Below are positions 1-8,295 of a stretch of 8,995 nt of DNA, in pieces. The translations under genes were made by a program, and so were the position numbers. The DNA is from a virus (lineage: Duplodnaviria > Heunggongvirae > Uroviricota > Caudoviricetes). The notes beneath the pieces were generated by a model, which saw only the letters and a program-made list of their open reading frames with translations, was not told the origin of the DNA and ran no database searches. Position 1 is the stretch's first letter. The number at the start of each line of letters is the position of its first letter. The DNA lies in the IMG/VR virus record IMGVR_UViG_2609460067_000017; one strand, given 5' to 3'.

Positions 1-573
1 ATGCTGATTGGCTACATACGTGTGTCAACAAATGACCAAAACACAGATTTGCAACGCAATGCATTAATGTGCGCAGGATGTGAACAGATTTTTGAGGACA
101 AAATGAGCGGAACCAAGTCGGAACGACCAGGCCTGAAACGCGCTTTAAAGTGCCTTAAAAGAGGGGATACATTGGTGGTCTGGAAGCTGGATCGGTTGGG
201 TAGAAGAATGAAACACCTCATTGCTCTCACAGAAGAGCTACGCGCAAAAGGTGTCAATTTTCGCAGTCTGACGGATTCAATCGATACCAGCACTCCGATG
301 GGAAGGTTCTTTTTTCATATGATGGGTGCACTGGCAGAAATGGAGCGTGAACTGATAGTTGAGCGCACGCTGGCTGGACTGGCTGCTGCGCGAGCACAAG
401 GAAGAGTTGGAGGACGTCGCCCGAAACTGACGAAGGAGCAGCATGAGCAGATCGCAAGATTGCTCCAGAAAGGGTATGACAGAAAGCGGCTGGCAATTAT
501 CTATGATATTGGACTGTCAACGATCTACCGCTATCACCCTGTTGGGACTGTCATAACGCAACCTGAAATGTAA
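1..573 (+). CDS. pin: Serine-type DNA invertase (Pin/Gin/Hin/Cin family site-specific recombinase)
   Basis: 190-aa ORF starting MLIGYIRVSTNDQ, the canonical resolvase/invertase N-terminal catalytic-serine motif, with a C-terminal HTH-like tail; TAA stop at 571-573. Near full-length resemblance, by recall, to E. coli prophage Pin invertases. The ATG is at window position 1, so any upstream crossover site or invertible segment is outside the window. Confidence 0.9.
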   Translation: MLIGYIRVSTNDQNTDLQRNALMCAGCEQIFEDKMSGTKSERPGLKRALKCLKRGDTLVVWKLDRLGRRMKHLIALTEELRAKGVNFRSLTDSIDTSTPMGRFFFHMMGALAEMERELIVERTLAGLAAARAQGRVGGRRPKLTKEQHEQIARLLQKGYDRKRLAIIYDIGLSTIYRYHPVGTVITQPEM

Positions 574-801
574 TTCTTTTTCAAATAATGAAACGCCGCG
601 TGGATGCCATTTATCGCACAAGATAGAGTGCATTTATCGCGCGGCGCATCATGCAGCTGCGACGCGGCCATCGAATATGGGGCGGATCTCTGCAACATGT
701 GCCGGGCGTCCATTCAGGTGCCAGCCGTTACGCCAGGTAATGCGGTCAATATGTCTTAACATCGGTCTTTCCTCGGTATAAGTTAAACGCTGGTCAGGCG
801 C

Positions 802-1592: not shown

Positions 1593-1631
1593 ATTACAAA
1601 CAATAACTGTAATTACAAATTATATTTGCAA
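1593..1631. promoter_or_regulatory. Divergent immunity-region operators (two adjacent 19-21 bp imperfect palindromes sharing the half-site TTACAAAT)
   Basis: ATTACAaacaataacTGTAAT (1593-1613) and TTACAAATtatATTTGCAA (1613-1631) lie between the divergent Cro-like and repressor genes; ATTACAAA occurs as a direct repeat at 1593-1600 and 1612-1619. Confidence 0.45.
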
Positions 1632-1665
1632 TGCTCCCTACAATTAAACCTTGTATCCTTACGGT

Positions 1666-2079
1666 ATGAACACAAAAACGAAAAACATGGCTTTTGCTAG
1701 CCGACTACAACGGATTCTAAAAGACTTAGGCTGGTCTCAATCTGAGTTAGCTCGCCATATTGGGGTTACGGCTCAATCAGTTCAGGCATGGTGTAATGGG
1801 GTAACTCCAAGAAAAGATAAATTAGACAAGCTAGCAAAAGTGACCGGATACCCTGTTCATTTTTTCTTCATGAATGAAGGGGAATATTTGGATGAATCCA
1901 CACTACACCCGGGTAATTACAATCAAGAACTAACCCCGCAAGAACAGGCTCTACTGCAACTATTCAGAGGACTGCCTGAGAGCGAAAAAAATAAATTAAT
2001 CAATGAGCTAAAAGAAAAAAGAGAGCACTTCGATCTACTGCTAAAAGAACTACTTGAAGCCAAAAACCAGACAAAATAG
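1666..2079 (+). CDS. XRE-family HTH transcriptional repressor (cI-like immunity repressor)
   Basis: N-terminal HTH (LGWSQSELARHIGVTAQSVQAWCNG) typical of XRE/cI-type repressors; divergent from the Cro-like gene across an operator-containing intergenic region; same strand as the int-ward early operon, as in lambda. Start is ambiguous (TTG 1651, ATG 1666 or ATG 1687); none has a strong SD, so a leaderless or weakly initiated start is possible. TAG stop at 2077-2079. Confidence 0.7.
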   Translation: MNTKTKNMAFASRLQRILKDLGWSQSELARHIGVTAQSVQAWCNGVTPRKDKLDKLAKVTGYPVHFFFMNEGEYLDESTLHPGNYNQELTPQEQALLQLFRGLPESEKNKLINELKEKREHFDLLLKELLEAKNQTK

Positions 2080-2197
2080 TTCAGTTCAAATTTCCAGGCC
2101 AGCCGCTGCTGGCATGCAACTTTCCCCTAACACAAAAACACCTTTACACAGTGAATATTTTTTTGCCCCTCACTACAAATTATTTTTTAAAAACACA

Positions 2198-2226
2198 TTG
2201 ACCATTACAAATACAAATTGTAAAGT
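2198..2226 (+). promoter_or_regulatory. Candidate pL-like early promoter overlapped by a third operator
   Basis: -35-like TTGACC (2198-2203), 17-nt spacer, -10-like TAAAGT (2221-2226); overlapped by TTACAAATacaAATTGTAA (2206-2224), which shares the TTACAAAT half-site with the two operators at 1593-1631. A partial copy CTACAAATTAT lies at 2173-2183. Confidence 0.4.
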
Positions 2227-2562
2227 CACTTTCATCAACAACGCTTACCCAGCGGCAGTTGTTCAGAAACACGTTCTGACAGCCGGAAAGACGGCACCAA
2301 ATTTTGCGCGTCGGCGCCAACACGGTGACAGAGGGAAAGACTTCACCGGCATATGGCACATGTGTCGAAGCGGTCTGGATGGAAGCGGAGCCTTAACGCG
2401 TTGTCTCCATAGCAGGTAGCCGGAATGTGCAAGCCACAGCCAGGTATGAGCGATTGATTCACCATCAAGGCGATACGGTGTGACCACCAGGGAAGAGTCC
2501 TGGCTACAACACGAGAGCGCACTTCATCGACTCAACTTTGAGCTTTGTCGTTAAATTTTGAA

Positions 2563-2648
2563 ATGGCGGAGTGCGCTCCCGGTTGTGGTGAACAGGTGTT
2601 TAACGGGAACTCCCTGCCCGTTACCCGGTTCGATTCCGGGCGCCCATC
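2563..2648 (+). other. tRNA-like element or fragment (T-arm CCCGG-TTCGATT-CCGGG followed by an acceptor-like CGCCCAT)
   Basis: A perfect T-stem/loop motif at 2624-2640 (GGTTCGATTCC embedded in a 5-bp GC stem) followed by 7 nt and a C. No CCA is encoded and I could not pair a clean 5' acceptor strand (ATGGCGG at 2563-2569 pairs only 5 of 7), so this is a tRNA-like structure or tRNA 3' fragment, not a confident tRNA gene. Confidence 0.2.
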
Positions 2649-2672
2649 ATCAATTTGCTGTGTTTAGTCTTT

Positions 2673-2700
2673 GCCCAGTCCGCACGATGGGCCATTTTTT
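2673..2700 (+). terminator. Possible weak intrinsic terminator (GCCCA-N10-TGGGC followed by CA and T6)
   Basis: 5-bp GC-rich stem at 2673-2677 and 2688-2692, then a T6 run at 2695-2700; about 25 nt downstream of the tRNA-like motif. The loop is long, so strength is uncertain. Confidence 0.25.
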
Positions 2701-2981
2701 CACACAGCCAGGTTTTATCGCTGTGCCTGAGTCCCCAACAGGAGAGGCCAAACCCGCAGCGTGACACCAGGGAAAGACCGGAGGAAGTACCACGCCTGAC
2801 CAGCGTTGACCATGAGCCTGACCAGCTCAAAACAGGAAAGACCAGCCCGGGCCTGACCAGCCCTGTACGGTCGTAATGGAAACATAACGACGCCGGAAAC
2901 GTAACCGGCACCCTTTAGATAGCAAAAGACCCGCACAAGGCGGGCCAGTTACCCCGAACGGCGACCAAACCATTCGGATTT

Positions 2982-3005
2982 ATCACAAGTGACCAAACTT
3001 GTGAT
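2982..3005. repeat. Perfect 9-bp inverted repeat (ATCACAAGT-gaccaa-ACTTGTGAT)
   Basis: Perfect palindromic arms at 2982-2990 and 2997-3005; it overlaps copy 1 of the ATGAGGAAAGACCA motif by 2 nt and lies upstream of the first early ORF. Could be a protein-binding site or an RNA hairpin in the early leader. Confidence 0.5.
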
Positions 3006-3017
3006 GAGGAAAGACCA
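3004..3017 (+). repeat. Copy 1 of conserved motif ATGAGGAAAGACCA (followed by ACG, not ATG)
   Basis: The 13-nt core ATGAGGAAAGACC matches the copies at 3427 and 6602 exactly. Here no ORF follows directly, which may mark a decayed gene start or a recombination joint. Confidence 0.6.
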
Positions 3018-3089
3018 ACGACACTGACGCTATGGAAGCTGATCAATATTCGCTGATCGGCTCTGAGTATACATTACCAAGGAGTCGCT

Positions 3090-3410
3090 ATGGAAGCGCG
3101 CACCATCCCAGTAACACTCTTTATTCATTATGCAACTTCAACTTTCAGCCACGAAAAGCTGCTTGTTGCGACTGTTGATATGTCAAAAAATTTTCCAGAC
3201 AGGTACATCCTTCTGGAAAGCCGCGAAATTGAAATTACCGTTAACCAGCCCGAGCCAATCGACATCATCGGTTTACAGGTCGAGCAACTGCGTGAACAAA
3301 AACAGAAAACAGTCGCCGACGCCCAACAGCGTATTGCTGCTATCGATGACAAAATCCAGCAGTTACTTTGCATCGAATACACGCCAGATACCGATGAGCT
3401 CCCCTACTAA
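3090..3410 (+). CDS. Hypothetical early-operon protein (106 aa, predicted coiled-coil C-terminus)
   Basis: ORF with a strong SD AAGGAG (3077-3082) 7 nt upstream of the ATG at 3090; TAA stop at 3408-3410; C-terminal region rich in Q/E/K heptad-like residues. No recognisable family. Confidence 0.6.
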   Translation: MEARTIPVTLFIHYATSTFSHEKLLVATVDMSKNFPDRYILLESREIEITVNQPEPIDIIGLQVEQLREQKQKTVADAQQRIAAIDDKIQQLLCIEYTPDTDELPY

Positions 3411-3426
3411 AAACCACTGACCTGTA

Positions 3427-3440
3427 ATGAGGAAAGACCA
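3427..3440 (+). repeat. Copy 2 of conserved motif ATGAGGAAAGACCA, immediately 5' of the 738-aa ORF start codon
   Basis: The motif ends at 3440 and the ATG is at 3441; the embedded GAGGA acts as the SD. Confidence 0.7.
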
Positions 3441-5657
3441 ATGACCATTTTTAACGGCTTGTTAGAAGCGAAAAAAGGCGCGCTCAAAAACGGCGCGATC
3501 CCGGCGCTGGCCATCGCCATCGCCGCCCCTAACAAAAAAGTTGCCGAGAACATCATCATCGGCAAATTGTGGGAAGCCTACCCTGACCACGGCGACAACT
3601 ATTTCAAACCTAAAATCTGGGAAGATGCCCCGGGCCAACCGCGCCCAGGCGTCGGTGAGTTTGATGAGACGTTTGCCACAGAACACAGTTTTGATGGCGA
3701 AAAATGGGTAGTTAACACTCCTGTTGATTCAGATTGCAGTTCAGCAGATATCTCACAGGTTAGCGACCTGATGAAACTGCCGGCTCGTGAACGATTCGCC
3801 GCCGTTCTGCTGTTCAGCCACGACGCCAACGAAGTCGACAGTGAATTGCTTGTGCAGACGCGTGAATACCTGGAGATGCTCGATAACAGTGATACTGACA
3901 GTGAGGATGAGGTTGACGCGTTTAACCGCATCGTTCTTGATGCCATGGTGGCGTGTAAGCCCATCGAGTACATGCATATTGCTGGATTGAATAATCTGGT
4001 ACATGCAATTTTGGCAAGTTGCGATACCCAGGAACAAAACCCGACCAGTTGGACTATCTCCAAATTTATAAAAAAATGGGTAGAGAATCCCGGTAAACGA
4101 GATGAAATGCTGCCGGAGGTAAAACCAGAAACAGCATCCGCACGTCCTTACAAACAGACTCACGCCACTCTGGATCGTGAAATTGCCTGCGCCCTGTTAC
4201 CTGTTGCCCCGGAAAAAATCACCCCCAGCATCCTGAAAGCGGCAGACGAAATAATCAGTCAGGACAGGGAAGATTTTAAACGCTGGTCAATGGCCTTGCG
4301 CACAACGGATCAGATCCTTGCCTATGACCGCGCATCAGTATTCGGTGTTATTCAGAGCGCCCCCGCAAAAGACACGTACCACTTCCCACAATCCCTGCGC
4401 AGTCACATCGACAACTGGCTGCAAGCTAACGGGCAGCGTGATGCAAATGCTGTTGAAGAGAAGCCAAAGGAAGCAGCACCCAAGGATGATGTAAAAGTCA
4501 CCAACCACGGCGGCGGACGATTCTCAATTGATGGGATGATGTCAGAAACACCCTCAAATCAGGGCGAAAAAAGCGAAGCTGCAAATGCTGGAGAACGTAG
4601 TTTGCAGCAGTTGCGTGAGCAGTTTGTCACGCCTCGCCATGTGTATGACGTACCTGAAAATAACGCCGTATCACAGAGGGAACCTGCAGCTATTACCCTG
4701 GCAGAAGAGACTCCTCCACAAGAACAACTTAGCGAGCAGGTAAAGGATCTGGTGCAGAACGTTGACGCGCTGGTTGAGCGGATCCATGCCGAAGAGCACA
4801 AGCGGCAGAATGCAATCTCAGCTATCGAAACGGAGTTAAAGGACTCAGATGACACGGATAACCTGGCATTGTGGAAGAACGTATTCAAAACCGATGAGCG
4901 CTTCACCAGTGCTTTCTCTCAGAATGGCGGCGGCACATCCATCAACGGCACTTATATAGCGATGAAAGCGACTCGCGAATTTGGGCCATTTGGTATTGGC
5001 TGGGGGGTAGAGGTGCTGGAGGAGCGCTTTGATAAAGGCGCACCAATAGTTCGCAAAAAACAGGTTGGTGAAAAAATAGAATGGGATCTGATTCAAGACG
5101 GTGTTGGCGGGTACCTATGTGAAATGCACCACACCATGAAAGTGAGAGTCTGGTACATATTGAATGGGGTACGCGGTGAGTCCGAGGCTTACGGATGCAC
5201 ACCTTATATCTACGACACTAAATACGGACCAACAAGCGACGGCGAAGCACCGAAGAAATCCTGGACGGATGCTGTTAAGAAAGCGCTATCCCCTCTCGGA
5301 TTCAGCGCCGATATTTTCATGGGCCTGTACGACAATCCGGAATACCGCCAGAGGAATAAAGCTGAGTTTGATATCAAGAATGCCAGCGAGAATGCGGAAG
5401 ATGCTACCCGTCTGCGTAAGGAACTGGATGAGAAGCTTATCAACGTTGCCAATACGCTGGCCGCCGCGGTAACCGCCAACGAAGTAAACAAGGTATTTGG
5501 CCTCATCGCCCGCGAAGTGGATGTACACAGGAAAGCAGCGGAAACCAAAGGCGATAAAGAATATTCATCGTATCTGGGATCACGTCTGCGCCGTATCACC
5601 GACATTAAAACTGAACGCCTCGCCGCCCTTACCGCTGCACAGGAGCAAACAGCATGA
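3441..5657 (+). CDS. Large prophage protein with a C-terminal Rad52-family single-strand annealing (SSAP/Sak-like) domain fused to an uncharacterised ~330-aa N-terminal domain and a charged low-complexity linker
   Basis: Uninterrupted 738-aa ORF. Residues ~470-640 (nt ~4850-5360) carry recalled Rad52 signatures: GGG...YI...FGxxGW (FSQNGGGTSINGTYIAMKATREFGPFGIGWG versus human RAD52 [29 protein letters not shown]) and the helix K..WTDAVKKAL.PLGF......GLYDNPEY (versus [28 protein letters not shown]). The N-terminal ~330 aa have no family I recognise. The TGA stop overlaps the next gene's ATG (ATGA at 5654-5657). Confidence 0.8.
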   Translation: MTIFNGLLEAKKGALKNGAIPALAIAIAAPNKKVAENIIIGKLWEAYPDHGDNYFKPKIWEDAPGQPRPGVGEFDETFATEHSFDGEKWVVNTPVDSDCSSADISQVSDLMKLPARERFAAVLLFSHDANEVDSELLVQTREYLEMLDNSDTDSEDEVDAFNRIVLDAMVACKPIEYMHIAGLNNLVHAILASCDTQEQNPTSWTISKFIKKWVENPGKRDEMLPEVKPETASARPYKQTHATLDREIACALLPVAPEKITPSILKAADEIISQDREDFKRWSMALRTTDQILAYDRASVFGVIQSAPAKDTYHFPQSLRSHIDNWLQANGQRDANAVEEKPKEAAPKDDVKVTNHGGGRFSIDGMMSETPSNQGEKSEAANAGERSLQQLREQFVTPRHVYDVPENNAVSQREPAAITLAEETPPQEQLSEQVKDLVQNVDALVERIHAEEHKRQNAISAIETELKDSDDTDNLALWKNVFKTDERFTSAFSQNGGGTSINGTYIAMKATREFGPFGIGWGVEVLEERFDKGAPIVRKKQVGEKIEWDLIQDGVGGYLCEMHHTMKVRVWYILNGVRGESEAYGCTPYIYDTKYGPTSDGEAPKKSWTDAVKKALSPLGFSADIFMGLYDNPEYRQRNKAEFDIKNASENAEDATRLRKELDEKLINVANTLAAAVTANEVNKVFGLIAREVDVHRKAAETKGDKEYSSYLGSRLRRITDIKTERLAALTAAQEQTA

Positions 5658-6223
5658 GCACTGCTATCGCTATTGCAAAAGAATATGCCAGTCTGATTGA
5701 CCTGTTAGAAACCGCCGATGAACTGACGCCAGAGATGATCGCCGACACGCTTGAAGGCATGGAAGGAGAACTGGGAGACAAACTGGACGCCATGATGGTC
5801 ATCTGCCGTAATTTACAGGGCAATGCCAATACCTGCGCTGAAGAAATGTCTCGCCTGGCAACCCGTAAGACGTCCTTTGAAGGCAAGGAAAAAGCAATTC
5901 GAAAGCATATGCTCACCTGCCTGCAAGCTGCTGGCCTGGATAAACTGAAAACCGCAAAAAACACATTTACTGATGCACAGGGGGCTATCCGGGTAATTAT
6001 CGATAGCAAAGATAAGATCCCGGATGAGTATGAGGGCGTGTCACTTGTTGATGTAGAAACGGTTATTACACCAAACAAGCGAGCCATTAAAGAAGTGATT
6101 GAATCTGCGGAGGCGGTTGCCGCCGAAATACTGGCGCGTGGAGAAACACCACCAGCCGAGTTATTAAACCCGGTACCAGGCGCACATCTGGAACGCGGCG
6201 AACGGTCACTGAGGATACGCTAA
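5654..6223 (+). CDS. Siphovirus Gp157-like protein (prophage recombination/replication-module accessory protein)
   Basis: 189-aa acidic helical protein; its pattern and its position next to an SSAP gene match my recollection of the Sipho_Gp157 family. SD AGGAG at 5641-5645; start overlaps the upstream stop (ATGA); its stop overlaps the next start (TAATG at 6221-6225). Confidence 0.65.
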   Translation: MSTAIAIAKEYASLIDLLETADELTPEMIADTLEGMEGELGDKLDAMMVICRNLQGNANTCAEEMSRLATRKTSFEGKEKAIRKHMLTCLQAAGLDKLKTAKNTFTDAQGAIRVIIDSKDKIPDEYEGVSLVDVETVITPNKRAIKEVIESAEAVAAEILARGETPPAELLNPVPGAHLERGERSLRIR

Positions 6224-6405
6224 TGCTTAAACTCACATTAAAGCGTGGTGACGCGGTTCACCTGGTACTTGCCGATGGTACCAATGGCATTATTGAAGCA
6301 CGGAGCCGCTGCGAACTTGGGCTACACCTGCCAGAAAACATTAAGGTCACTCGGGAGAAATCGGCATTCACCCCACAAGAACTGATTACGCCTAATCAGA
6401 AATAA
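6223..6405 (+). CDS. Small CsrA-like protein (60 aa), translationally coupled to the Gp157-like gene
   Basis: Ungapped alignment by eye to E. coli CsrA (61 aa) over residues 1-47: M1, L2, L4, T5, G9, G33, P37, V42, R44 and E45 are identical, with conservative matches at K7/R7, D10/E10, L34/V34 and I40/V40. This includes the positions corresponding to CsrA L4 and R44, which are important for RNA binding. TAATG overlap with the upstream gene; SD-like GAGGA upstream. Confidence 0.55.
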   Translation: MLKLTLKRGDAVHLVLADGTNGIIEARSRCELGLHLPENIKVTREKSAFTPQELITPNQK

Positions 6406-6454: not shown

Positions 6455-6679
6455 ATGCTGCGATGGCAACCGGGAGCAACTCTGCTCTCCGCATTTGATA
6501 TCAAAATTGGTCGACTGTCGGCCAGCGTCAGGAAACAGACTTTGACCGAGTCTGATATTGCCCGTGCCTGCCAGAAGGCAGATGACGCAATAAGCTACAT
6601 AATGAGGAAAGACCATGAAAAGCGATCACGACATAATCACCAGAGAAGAAATGGTCGAGCTGACGGGAAGCCCACTTAA
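6455..6679 (+). CDS. Hypothetical small basic protein (74 aa from the ATG at 6455)
   Basis: SD GGAGGA (6445-6450) precedes the ATG at 6455; overlaps the start of the next ORF by 65 nt in a different frame. The C-terminus is very basic. Coding status is uncertain. Confidence 0.35.
   Translation: MLRWQPGATLLSAFDIKIGRLSASVRKQTLTESDIARACQKADDAISYIMRKDHEKRSRHNHQRRNGRADGKPT
6602..6614 (+). repeat. Copy 3 of conserved motif ATGAGGAAAGACC, immediately 5' of the excisionase-like ORF start codon
   Basis: The motif ends at 6614 and the ATG is at 6615; identical 13-mer to the copies at 3004 and 3427. Confidence 0.7.
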
Positions 6680-6878
6680 ATCAAAGCAATGTGAGGCTCT
6701 TCGCCGGGCTGGAATTTTCTTCATGGAAAGGGCTGACGGACACCCAAAAACAACCTGGGGCCATTTCATGAACCCAATAAAATTTCGCAATTTACAGGAG
6801 GTGACGACGCGAAAAGATGATGAACCTGATTTTGGAGCAATATTTAATGGCCGGAAAGAGAAAGAACCCAGCAGATAA
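6615..6878 (+). CDS. Excisionase-like / recombination directionality factor candidate (small DNA-binding protein upstream of int, DUF4224-like)
   Basis: 87-aa ORF directly upstream of and overlapping the integrase start by about 30 nt, an arrangement like lambda xis-int. The MVELTGSPLKSKQCEALRRAGIFF segment resembles the small DNA-binding proteins commonly found upstream of phage integrases (recall, not searched). Confidence 0.5.
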   Translation: MKSDHDIITREEMVELTGSPLKSKQCEALRRAGIFFMERADGHPKTTWGHFMNPIKFRNLQEVTTRKDDEPDFGAIFNGRKEKEPSR

Positions 6879-7993: not shown

Positions 7994-8080
7994 TGGTACC
8001 CGGAGCGGGACTTGAACCCGCACAGCGCGAACGCCGAGGGATTTTAAATCCCTTGTGTCTACCGATTCCACCATCCGGGC
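7994..8080 (-). tRNA. leuZ: tRNA-Leu (anticodon UAA), 87 nt including CCA
   Basis: The reverse complement reads GCCCGGATGGTGGAATCGGTAGACACAAGGGATTTAAAATCCCTCGGCGTTCGCGCTGTGCGGGTTCAAGTCCCGCTCCGGGTACCA: class II tRNA with a long variable arm, anticodon loop TTTAAAA and T-loop GGTTCAAGTCC; matches E. coli leuZ by recall. Confidence 0.95.
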
Positions 8081-8092
8081 TCGGGAAAAAAG

Positions 8093-8166
8093 TGGAGGCG
8101 CGTTCCGGAGTCGAACCGGACTAGACGGATTTGCAATCCGCTACATAACCGCTTTGTTAACGCGCC
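8093..8166 (-). tRNA. cysT: tRNA-Cys (anticodon GCA), 74 nt including CCA
   Basis: The reverse complement reads GGCGCGTTAACAAAGCGGTTATGTAGCGGATTGCAAATCCGTCTAGTCCGGTTCGACTCCGGAACGCGCCTCCA; matches E. coli cysT by recall. Confidence 0.95.
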
Positions 8167-8219
8167 AAATTCTTCAGGCCTTTCAGCCAGACATCCGCTG
8201 ACGCCGATGCCTTTTAAAC

Positions 8220-8295
<76 letters not shown>

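What the first reader, a model, noticed from the sequence alone, without database searches (positions are those of the whole stretch)
6223..6405. Prophage-encoded CsrA-like small protein translationally coupled to the Gp157-like gene
The 60-aa product aligns without gaps to E. coli CsrA over about 47 residues, with identities at M1, L2, L4, T5, G9, G33, P37, V42, R44 and E45, including the positions corresponding to CsrA L4 and R44 that are important for RNA binding. A phage-borne CsrA paralogue in an early operon could reprogramme host post-transcriptional regulation or titrate CsrB/CsrC-type sRNAs. Several genes in this operon are preceded by a GGA-containing motif (see the motif finding), which raises the possibility of autoregulation or operon regulation by this protein.
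Basis: partly seen in the sequence, partly recalled or inferred. Interest (0 to 1): 0.65.

Follow-up and report, generated by a model that had tools for sequence, protein, structure and literature searches.

The report
Divergent CsrA-like small prophage protein
A conserved 60-residue protein of an E. coli lambdoid prophage is probably a very distant relative of the RNA-binding regulator CsrA, and its phage carries conserved GGA-loop RNA hairpins it might bind, but neither the fold nor RNA binding could be shown here.

Summary
ORF 6223-6405 (+) is a real gene under strong purifying selection (dN/dS about 0.07). It overlaps the stop of the Gp157-family gene (TAATG) and lies in a prophage inserted at tRNA-Leu beside pgsA, found in about 9% of complete E. 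coli genomes. The ten listed identities to E. coli CsrA are exact.

The CsrA reading is partly supported:
- Pfam CsrA is the only or top hit, but below threshold (13 bits against 27).
- Profile-profile comparison gives 18-23% probability against typical CsrA. It gives 89-94% (E 1e-6 to 1e-7) once divergent genuine CsrA proteins are included.
- Five strands are predicted where CsrA has them, and R44 is kept.

Against it:
- BLASTP finds nothing, and no CsrA chain appears in sequence or fold searches of the PDB.
- The CsrA helix is not predicted and A36 is lost.
- The family has its own invariant features, including a C-terminal LIxxNQK tail.
- The dimer could not be modelled.

The gene always follows Gp157 in the recombination module.

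Separately, GGAAAGAC is about 35-fold over-represented. It forms covarying hairpins in the early leader and overlaps several ribosome-binding sites. That is suggestive of a CsrA-like target set, but the link to this protein is untested.

The parts
6223..6405 (+). 60-codon gene for the small beta-rich protein (phrog_2482). Probable divergent CsrA-superfamily member.
   Evidence: ORF; PGAP CDS; dN/dS 0.07; Pfam CsrA sub-threshold; hhalign.
6211..6215 (+). GAGGA Shine-Dalgarno of the small gene, lying inside the 3' end of the Gp157-family gene.
   Evidence: Read directly from the sequence.
5654..6223 (+). Siphovirus Gp157-family gene (PHROG label 'Mu Gam-like end protection'). Its TAA stop overlaps the ATG of the small gene.
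   Evidence: Pfam PF05565 E 9e-29; phrog_253 E 1e-46. It lies directly upstream of the small gene in every locus whose gene map was obtained.
3441..5657 (+). 738-residue exonuclease-like gene (YdfE/RecE-like), the first gene of the conserved three-gene module.
   Evidence: phrog_2489 'exonuclease'; YdfE_N, YdfE_C and Exonuc_VIII on homologues.
2282..2295 (+). Leader hairpin 1: GCC-GGAAAGAC-GGC, preceded by CTGACA.
   Evidence: covariation of the hairpin family.
2331..2344 (+). Leader hairpin 2: GAG-GGAAAGAC-UUC, preceded by GTGACA, 49 nt after hairpin 1.
   Evidence: The 49-51 nt spacing of the pair is kept in related loci.
2767..2781 (+). Leader hairpin 3: CC(A)G-GGAAAGAC-CGG, an imperfect stem.
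3427..3440 (+). RBS-type motif ATGAGGAAAGACCA immediately before the ATG of the exonuclease-like gene.
6602..6615 (+). RBS-type motif ATGAGGAAAGACCA ending in the ATG of the DUF4224 excisionase-like gene, 197 nt after the small gene.
   Evidence: present in nearly all relatives.
3004..3017 (+). Start-less copy of the RBS-type motif. The 26-nt repeat matches the exonuclease-like gene's start region, with ATG replaced by ACG.
763..776 (-). RBS-type motif CCGAGGAAAGACCG directly before an ATG at 762 in the oppositely transcribed early operon.
2198..2226 (+). Promoter-like site TTGACC-17-TAAAGT, the candidate early-left promoter upstream of the hairpins.
   Evidence: The only promoter-like site found in 1600-3450.
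2678..2700 (+). Terminator-like hairpin plus T run in the untranslated leader.

Best explanation
The gene encodes a small, all-beta protein that belongs to a previously unnamed, highly divergent branch of the CsrA/RsmA superfamily. The branch is carried by Rac-like lambdoid prophages of Enterobacterales.

Shown:
- It is expressed from the early-left operon, directly after the Gp157 (Gam-like) gene and, in E. coli, coupled to it.
- It is a fixed third member of the exonuclease-Gp157 module.

Inferred: like CsrA, it acts as a dimer that binds short RNA hairpins or single-stranded stretches. The most likely targets are the phage's own GGAAAGAC elements. These are a pair of conserved hairpins about 50 nt apart in the early leader, and sites that overlap the Shine-Dalgarno sequences of the exonuclease-like, excisionase-like and some replication-operon genes. 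Binding there would give feedback control of early gene translation or of read-through.

The invariant C-terminal LIxxNQK tail probably docks a protein partner. Gp157 is the obvious candidate.
For: Homology to CsrA:
- CsrA is the only Pfam hit, colinear over 45 of 53 profile positions, and is hit by 17 of 23 members.
- The gapless score is far above shuffles.
- hhalign gives 89% (E 2e-6) with divergent genuine CsrA proteins included; no permutation of 300 reached it. It stays at 68% without the most similar bridging sequence.
- hhalign gives 94% against PF02599-annotated Lachnospiraceae CsrA.
- A residual signal (E about 6e-4 to 1e-3) remains after the first nine residues are removed.
- The model has five strands at 2-6, 11-15, 21-25, 30-34 and 41-45. 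This fits the beta1-beta5 plan described in PMC7366521.
- R44, the arginine essential for RNA binding in CsrA (PMC7366521), is kept in at least 90% of the family.

Gene and context:
- Strong purifying selection.
- Invariant synteny after Gp157, even where the xis/int type differs.

Candidate targets:
- GGAAAGAC occurs 9 times against 0.26 expected, always on the sense strand.
- The leader hairpins have an invariant loop and compensatory stem changes: 89% of cells paired against 65% in shuffles, 35 double changes against 11, none of 500 shuffles reaching this.
- PMC7366521 states that CsrA binds short hairpins with GGA in the loop and that each dimer can bind two such motifs.
Against: Against homology:
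- The Pfam score is half the gathering score.
- Divergent family members do not hit CsrA.
- BLASTP finds nothing against E. coli CsrA.
- The family profile finds no CsrA chain in the PDB at E up to 10.
- Most of the boost from Lachnospiraceae CsrA comes from nine N-terminal residues. Comparable short-motif matches occur in unrelated repeat proteins: ankyrin repeats and the Bap C-repeat.
- A36, invariant in the CsrA set used, is L/F/M here. R6 is L here, although L6 also occurs in Lachnospiraceae CsrA. The CsrA helix H1 is not predicted.
- hhalign shifts the middle of the alignment by six residues relative to the gapless register, so strand equivalence is uncertain.
- ZF40, whose gp05 belongs to this family, is not named in a converged PSI-BLAST survey of phage CsrA alleles (PMC7366521).

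Against the target link:
- In phages ZF40/L247 and L250 the RBS-type motif is GGCAAGACC or GGTATAACC, with no GGA, although the protein is present.
- Co-occurrence of protein and motif is explained by physical linkage within one phage lineage.
- Fixed association with a recombination module points as readily to a DNA-end or protein-binding role.
Confidence: 0.45

Rival explanations
1. The protein is an accessory subunit or modulator of the phage recombination module and has no RNA role. It would bind Gp157 (Gam-like), the exonuclease, or a host nuclease such as RecBCD through its beta core and its conserved C-terminal LIxxNQK tail. Its resemblance to CsrA would then be either ancient and functionally irrelevant, or convergent.
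For: - The gene lies directly after Gp157 in every relative whose gene map was obtained, down to 37% identity. The downstream xis/int genes are swapped among three types (DUF4224, Exc, HTH_17).
- The stop-start overlap or 0-4 nt spacing in close relatives suggests stoichiometric co-production.
- The most invariant residues (D18, I24, R29, I55, N58, Q59) are family-specific, not CsrA positions.
Against: - No similarity to any known Gam, Abc, Kil or Ral type protein was returned by Pfam, PHROGs, NCBIfam or the PDB searches.
- Synteny within one phage lineage can reflect shared descent rather than function.
- In divergent relatives the coupling is replaced by a spacer; L248 and L250 have a hairpin and their own SD there.
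Confidence: 0.3
2. The protein is a small beta protein of an unrelated fold (SH3-like barrel, half of an Ig-like sandwich, or TRAP-like). It would have an unknown host-directed function, and the CsrA similarity would be a chance match of short beta-hairpin motifs.
For: - Nine of 23 members give weak SH3_2 hits.
- The family profile hits Bap C-repeats in PDB entry 7dm0 over residues 11-42.
- Long repeat proteins of other folds match short parts of the profile.
Against: - None of these matches is colinear over the whole protein.
- Each Bap repeat scores only 13 bits (per-repeat E 0.76).
- The CsrA match is full-length, has the same length up to P37 and R44, and both halves contribute independently.
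Confidence: 0.2
3. The GGAAAGAC hairpins are nut/boxB-like sites for a different factor, either an N-like antiterminator or host CsrA, and are unrelated to the 60-residue protein.
For: - The hairpin form (GC-rich 4-5 bp stem with a purine-rich GAAAGA loop) resembles lambda boxB, GCCCU-GAAAA-AGGGC (own knowledge).
- The hairpins sit 50-100 nt downstream of the candidate early promoter and upstream of a terminator-like site.
- The hairpin loop stays GGAAAGAC in phages whose RBS-type motif has changed, so the two motif classes may have different readers.
Against: - No N-like arginine-rich ORF is evident between the leader and the first gene.
- No hairpin copy was seen in the opposite early operon, where a nutR equivalent would be expected.
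Confidence: 0.35

Closest known systems
CsrA/RsmA family (Pfam PF02599), including mobile-element copies: RsmQ on Pseudomonas plasmids (PMC9928087), and csrA alleles in Pseudomonas, Vibrio, Burkholderia and E. coli phages (PMC7366521)
   Same: - About 60 residues with an N-terminal MLxL(T/S)xKxG(D/E) strand.
- Five predicted beta strands in matching positions.
- G9, G33, P37, V42, R44 and E45 in the same register.
- Carried by a mobile element.
- hhalign probability of 89-94% against divergent genuine members.
   Different: - Its phage ZF40 is not named in the published PSI-BLAST survey of phage CsrA alleles.
- No predicted C-terminal helix H1.
- A36 is replaced, and R6 is replaced (as it is in Lachnospiraceae CsrA).
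- Family-specific invariant D18-G19, G22, I24, R29 and a C-terminal LIxxNQK tail.
- A fixed position after a Gp157/Gam-like gene, whereas the phage csrA genes looked at sit in other contexts.
Lachnospiraceae/Eubacterium CsrA subfamily (PF02599-annotated 'carbon storage regulator', e.g. P0087, P0091)
   Same: - A nearly identical N-terminus (MLKLTLKPGE against MLKLTLKRGD), including L6 in place of the usual R6.
- P37 and R44 at the same positions.
- A 'D-x-I/V-h-I/V-V-F-x-x-G-S/T' stretch.
   Different: - These proteins pass the Pfam threshold, are 80-90 residues long and have a long helical C-terminal extension.
- Without the first nine residues the profile match falls to 19%.
Lambda N / boxB (nut) antitermination sites. 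Compared with the hairpins, not with the protein.
   Same: A short GC-rich stem closing a purine-rich GAAA(G)A loop, placed just downstream of the early-left promoter and upstream of a terminator-like site. The stem covaries and the loop is invariant.
   Different: - The loop is 6-8 nt rather than 5.
- It is preceded by CUGACA rather than a boxA.
- No N-like gene was found.
- No copy was seen in the rightward operon.
T4 RegA-type translational repression of many early genes through a shared operator at the ribosome-binding site
   Same: A motif of more than 12 nt is shared by the ribosome-binding sites of several early genes in both divergent operons. All copies differ in the same way between phages: GGAAAGACC, GGCAAGACC or GGTATAACC.
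   Different: No sequence relation to RegA. The repressor, if there is one, is unidentified.

Membership tests
CsrA/RsmA (PF02599) | Scores above the Pfam gathering threshold against the CsrA profile | tested here: not met
   13.1 bits against a cut-off of 27, E 0.097. The best of 23 members reaches E 9e-4. Members at 37-50% identity give no hit.
CsrA/RsmA (PF02599) | Profile-profile similarity over the whole core | tested here: inconclusive
   hhalign gives 18-23% against 13 typical CsrA proteins, 89% with divergent CsrA included, with none of 300 permutations reaching it, and 94% against Lachnospiraceae CsrA. The result depends strongly on the N-terminal nine residues.
CsrA/RsmA (PF02599) | Secondary structure beta1-beta5 followed by helix H1 (PMC7366521) | tested here: inconclusive
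   The AlphaFold2 monomer model (pLDDT 77) has strands at 2-6, 11-15, 21-25, 30-34 and 41-45. No helix follows residue 45; there is only a three-residue turn at 52-54.
CsrA/RsmA (PF02599) | Homodimer formed by intertwining of beta1 and beta5 | not testable with these tools
The monomer model matches no CsrA chain, which is expected for one chain of a swapped dimer and so does not decide the question.
CsrA/RsmA (PF02599) | Conserved arginine at the beta5/H1 boundary (R44), essential for RNA binding | tested here: met
   R44 aligns in the gapless register and in the hhalign alignments. It is kept in at least 90% of 25 family members. It is absent in the two most divergent members, P0040 and P0046.
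CsrA/RsmA (PF02599) | Conserved beta1 motif M-L-x-L-x-R and A36-P37 | tested here: inconclusive
   M1, L2, L4 and P37 are kept. R6 is L and A36 is L/F/M. L6 also occurs in PF02599-annotated Lachnospiraceae CsrA. L4 is not kept in divergent members.
CsrA/RsmA (PF02599) | Binds GGA in hairpin loops or at Shine-Dalgarno sequences | not testable with these tools
   Candidate sites exist in the same phage. No binding data can be produced here.
AbrB/MazE/SpoVT swapped-hairpin family | Match to the SpoVT-AbrB/MazE profile | tested here: not met
   No such Pfam hit at E up to 10 for any of 23 + 9 members.
Bacterial Ig-like / Bap C-repeat | Full-domain match to the repeat | tested here: not met
   Only residues 11-42 match, at 13 bits per repeat (per-repeat E 0.76). 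The whole-chain E of 1e-5 comes from summing two repeats. Foldseek gives E 3.9 and TM 0.44 for 7dm0.

The most novel reading that the evidence does not exclude
As a dimer it would bridge the two covarying hairpins set about 50 nt apart in the early leader. It would also occupy the Shine-Dalgarno-overlapping copies at the exonuclease-like, excisionase-like and replication-operon genes. This would form a self-contained, phage-private Csr-like circuit for feedback control of early gene translation or read-through past the leader terminator. It could also cross-talk with host CsrA and with CsrB/CsrC.
Probability: 0.15. Interest if true: 0.85.

Novelty: new variant of a known kind. Interest (0 to 1): 0.55.

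Why it matters
Genuine csrA genes are already known on plasmids and in phages. Their roles there are barely understood, apart from the plasmid regulator RsmQ.

If this family is a true CsrA relative, the superfamily extends well below current profile thresholds. It would also reach a common prophage type, present in about one in eleven complete E. coli genomes and in Salmonella, Klebsiella, Citrobacter, Enterobacter and Pectobacterium phages. The family is currently annotated only as a hypothetical protein.

The phage's conserved GGA-loop hairpins and shared ribosome-binding-site motif provide a concrete regulon that can be tested directly. Either outcome would be informative:
- A phage-private Csr-like circuit.
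- A CsrA-like fold recruited as a partner of a Gam-like recombination protein.

Tried and rejected
- **AFDB Foldseek library.** Unavailable.
- **Family profile against PDB sequences.** No CsrA chain. The hits were designed TIM barrels and Bap repeats, through short motifs.
- **Exhaustive HMMER search with the family profile.** Only 17 hits at E <= 0.001. These were family members plus repeat proteins matched through short motifs; none was CsrA.
- **NCBIfam.** No hit.
- **The search for related loci on genome contigs with the wide alignment.** Failed for lack of a conserved stretch.
- **Pattern TGACAGNNGGAAAGAC in viral contigs.** Dominated by chance single matches, so not informative.
- **Co-occurrence of the xis RBS motif with the small gene.** Found in all 29 true relatives, but the two lie only 380 nt apart in one lineage, so this is not independent evidence.
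- **Rfam.** No known RNA family covers the leader hairpins. There was only a weak sub-threshold RprA match.
- **AbrB/MazE and Kil-like readings.** Rejected for lack of any profile signal.
- **P0031.** Dropped from the alignments because it is a frameshifted copy.

Full report
**Where the window comes from**

The window is the left arm of a Rac-like lambdoid prophage of E. coli. The prophage is integrated at the tRNA-Leu/Cys/Gly cluster next to pgsA, uvrC and uvrY. The segment 5600-6900 occurs in 509 of 5,426 complete E. coli genomes, always on the chromosome.

Gene order on the + strand:
- a cI-like HTH repressor, 1651-2079;
- about 1 kb with no annotated gene;
- a 106-residue ORF;
- a 738-residue exonuclease-like protein, 3441-5657;
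- a Siphovirus Gp157-family protein, 5654-6223 (PHROG label 'Mu Gam-like end protection');
- the 60-residue ORF, 6223-6405;
- a 74-residue ORF that PGAP does not annotate;
- a DUF4224 excisionase-like gene, 6615-6878;
- a tyrosine integrase.

YdaS/Cro-like and YdaT-like genes run the other way on the - strand.

**The observation**

The ORF is there. Its ATG shares one base with the TAA stop of the Gp157-family gene, and a GAGGA sits 7 nt upstream. There is no promoter-like site or + strand terminator-like site between the two genes.

The gapless BLOSUM62 score of 30 was never reached in 20,000 shuffles (mean -34, sd 14.5). BLASTP reports no alignment.

The gene is real. Among 38 distinct 60-codon alleles, median dN/dS is 0.07, with a maximum of 0.24. 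It matches phrog_2482, a family of unknown function, at E 2e-36.

**The family and its context**

- The word-indexed protein search found about 30 clusters. They come from E. coli, Salmonella, Citrobacter, Klebsiella, Enterobacter and Yokenella, and all are 60-61 residues long.
- The exhaustive HMMER search added members at 37-50% identity.
- tblastn found homologues in Pectobacterium phage ZF40 (gp05, 43%) and in phage BUCT708.

In every locus whose gene map was obtained, the gene sits directly after the Gp157-family gene, which in turn follows the large exonuclease-like gene (truncated at the contig end in L247). The excisionase and integrase downstream belong to three different types: DUF4224, Exc and HTH_17. 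The small gene therefore travels with the exonuclease-Gp157 module, not with the integration module.

The stop-start overlap or 0-4 nt spacing holds in close relatives. In divergent ones there is a 32-41 nt spacer, with a GC-rich hairpin and a separate SD in L248 and L250.

Residues conserved across the family:
- invariant: M1, G9, D18, I24, R29, P37, I55, N58, Q59;
- nearly invariant: L2, D10, G19, G22, R44, L54, K60.

The C-terminal LIxxNQK tail is a hallmark of this family and has no counterpart in CsrA.

**Is it a CsrA relative? Evidence for**

- Pfam returns CsrA as the only hit. It is colinear over positions 1-45 of both protein and profile, but scores 13.1 bits against a cut-off of 27.
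- Seventeen of 23 close members hit CsrA, best E 9e-4.
- Against 13 typical CsrA proteins taken from phage and plasmid records, hhalign gives 18-23% probability and a P value near 1e-3. One of 400 column permutations reached the observed score.
- tblastn with CsrA at a looser threshold recovered divergent CsrA-like proteins: E. coli phage PTXU04, Burkholderia phage Bcep22 and three metagenomic records.
  - With these added, hhalign rises to 89% (E 2e-6), and none of 300 permutations reached it.
  - It stays at 68% when the most similar bridging sequence is left out.
- That bridging sequence belongs to a Lachnospiraceae/Eubacterium subfamily. The subfamily carries PF02599, is named 'carbon storage regulator', and starts MLKLTLKPGE. 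The phage family matches it at 94% (E 2e-7).
- With the first nine residues removed, a weaker signal remains (E 6e-4 to 1e-3). Both halves of the protein therefore contribute, in the same order.
- The AlphaFold2 monomer model (pLDDT 77) has five strands at 2-6, 11-15, 21-25, 30-34 and 41-45. This fits the beta1-beta5 plan of CsrA described in PMC7366521.
- The arginine essential for RNA binding aligns with the well-conserved R44.

**Is it a CsrA relative? Evidence against**

- Divergent family members give no CsrA hit.
- The family profile finds no CsrA chain among PDB sequences at E up to 10.
- The helix that follows beta5 in CsrA is not predicted.
- A36, invariant in my CsrA set, is replaced. 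R6 is replaced too, although Lachnospiraceae CsrA also has L6.
- hhalign shifts the middle of the alignment by six residues relative to the gapless register.
- Parts of the profile match unrelated repeat proteins: ankyrin 'LKLLKERGANIHV' and Bap C-repeat 'TVKLTFPDGT'. Short-motif matches of this kind can therefore arise in other folds.
- A converged PSI-BLAST survey of phage csrA alleles does not name ZF40 (PMC7366521).
- The dimer, which is the defining structural feature, could not be modelled.

I put true homology at roughly 60%.

**The GGA motif**

Its core, GGAAAGAC, occurs nine times against 0.26 expected, and always on the sense strand of the local operon. Across about 80 related loci it falls into two classes.

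*Leader hairpins*
- Form: CUGACA, a 3-5 bp stem of variable sequence, the invariant GGAAAGAC, then the complementary stem.
- On 37 distinct copies, 89% of cells pair against 65% in shuffles. There are 35 double-change cells against 11, and the covariation score is 0.51 against 0.13. None of 500 shuffles reached these values, and slid controls are far lower.
- The window has two such hairpins 49 nt apart, at 2282-2295 and 2331-2344. A pair spaced 49-51 nt recurs in many of the relatives. There is a third, imperfect hairpin at 2767-2781.
- They lie downstream of the only promoter-like site (2198-2226) and upstream of a terminator-like site (2678-2700).

*RBS-type copies*
- Form: YGAGGAAAGACCA followed by ATG within 0-3 nt.
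- Positions: before the exonuclease-like gene, before the excisionase-like gene, and before a gene in the opposite operon. One further copy has lost its start codon.
- In ZF40 and L247 this class reads GAGGCAAGACC, and there it also precedes the small gene itself. In L250 it reads GAGGTATAACC.
- The hairpin loop stays GGAAAGAC in those phages.
- All copies of the RBS-type motif differ in the same way from one phage to another. This argues for a specific trans-acting reader rather than ribosome pairing alone.

**How it most likely works**

Shown:
- a conserved, selected small protein;
- co-transcribed with and following Gp157;
- with a weak but colinear CsrA-like signature.

Inferred: it acts as a CsrA-like dimer on RNA.

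The phage's own GGA-containing hairpins and ribosome-binding sites are the natural candidate targets. CsrA family proteins bind GGA in hairpin loops and at Shine-Dalgarno sequences, and each dimer can bind two such motifs (PMC7366521).

This link is not demonstrated. Co-occurrence is explained by linkage within one lineage. The RBS-type variants without GGA do not fit canonical CsrA recognition. The hairpins also look like lambda boxB sites for an unidentified N-like factor.

The fixed pairing with a Gam-like gene, together with the family-specific tail, keeps a protein-partner role in recombination as a serious rival.

**Novelty**

Genuine csrA genes in phages and plasmids are known: 88 phage records and 299 plasmids here, plus PMC7366521 and PMC9928087. 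A phage CsrA as such is therefore not new.

What would be new is a branch this divergent, in this fixed context, in common enterobacterial prophages. It is currently annotated only as hypothetical.

Noticed in passing
window 2282-2295, 2331-2344, 2767-2781 (+); related loci L003, L016-L095, L248, L250: A family of conserved RNA-type hairpins lies in the roughly 1 kb untranslated early-left leader. Each has CUGACA, a variable 3-5 bp stem, an invariant GGAAAGAC loop and the complementary stem. Compensatory stem changes are strong: 89% of cells paired against 65% in shuffles, with none of 500 shuffles reaching this. The shape is boxB-like, no Rfam family covers it, and its reader is unknown.
   Followed up: yes
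window 3427-3440, 6602-6615, 3004-3017 (+), 763-776 (-); L002 (ZF40), L247, L250: Several early genes in both divergent operons share a ribosome-binding-site motif, YGAGGAAAGACCA followed by ATG. All copies read GAGGCAAGACC in ZF40 and L247, and GAGGTATAACC in L250. This consistent difference between phages suggests a specific trans-acting reader, in the style of RegA.
   Followed up: partly
window 2592-2702 (+): A weak, sub-threshold Rfam match to the sRNA RprA spans the whole model (37 bits against a gathering score of 70, E 0.1). It ends at a terminator-like hairpin plus T run at 2678-2700. The stretch 2627-2650 also reads like a tRNA T-arm and acceptor end (GGTTCGATTCCGGGCGCCCA). It may be a small RNA or a leader terminator.
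   Followed up: no
window 2794-2804, 2816-2826, 2851-2861 (+), and about 790 (-): A second repeated 11-mer, GCCTGACCAGC, occurs three times in the leader. It occurs once in the opposite operon, between the YdaT-like gene and the next gene, again on the sense strand.
   Followed up: no
window 2080-3090: About 1 kb between the repressor gene and the first early-left ORF has no annotated gene and no convincing ORF. No N-like gene is evident, although the region holds a promoter-like site (2198-2226), hairpins and a terminator-like site.
   Followed up: partly
window 6455-6679 (+): A 74-codon ORF lies between the small gene and the excisionase-like gene. It matches phrog_27062 (E 1e-32) but is not annotated by PGAP. 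Its arginine-rich C-terminal end overlaps the start of the DUF4224 gene in another frame.
   Followed up: no
window 1-573 (+) compared with L001: The window starts with a Pin/Hin-type serine recombinase (invertase-like) ORF. In strain SA186 (L001) the corresponding position continues with the replication operon. The prophages therefore differ in structure to the left of about position 600.
   Followed up: no
window 7994-8295 (-) and beyond; L001: The prophage attachment site is at tRNA-Leu(taa). This places the phage about 3 kb from uvrY, the response regulator that drives CsrB/CsrC. The proximity is most likely a coincidence of the tRNA integration site.
   Followed up: no
P0031; window 6245-6385 (+): One database 'homologue' at 43% identity is a frameshifted copy. 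Its middle part is the translation of the overlapping alternative frame. It was excluded from the alignments.
   Followed up: yes
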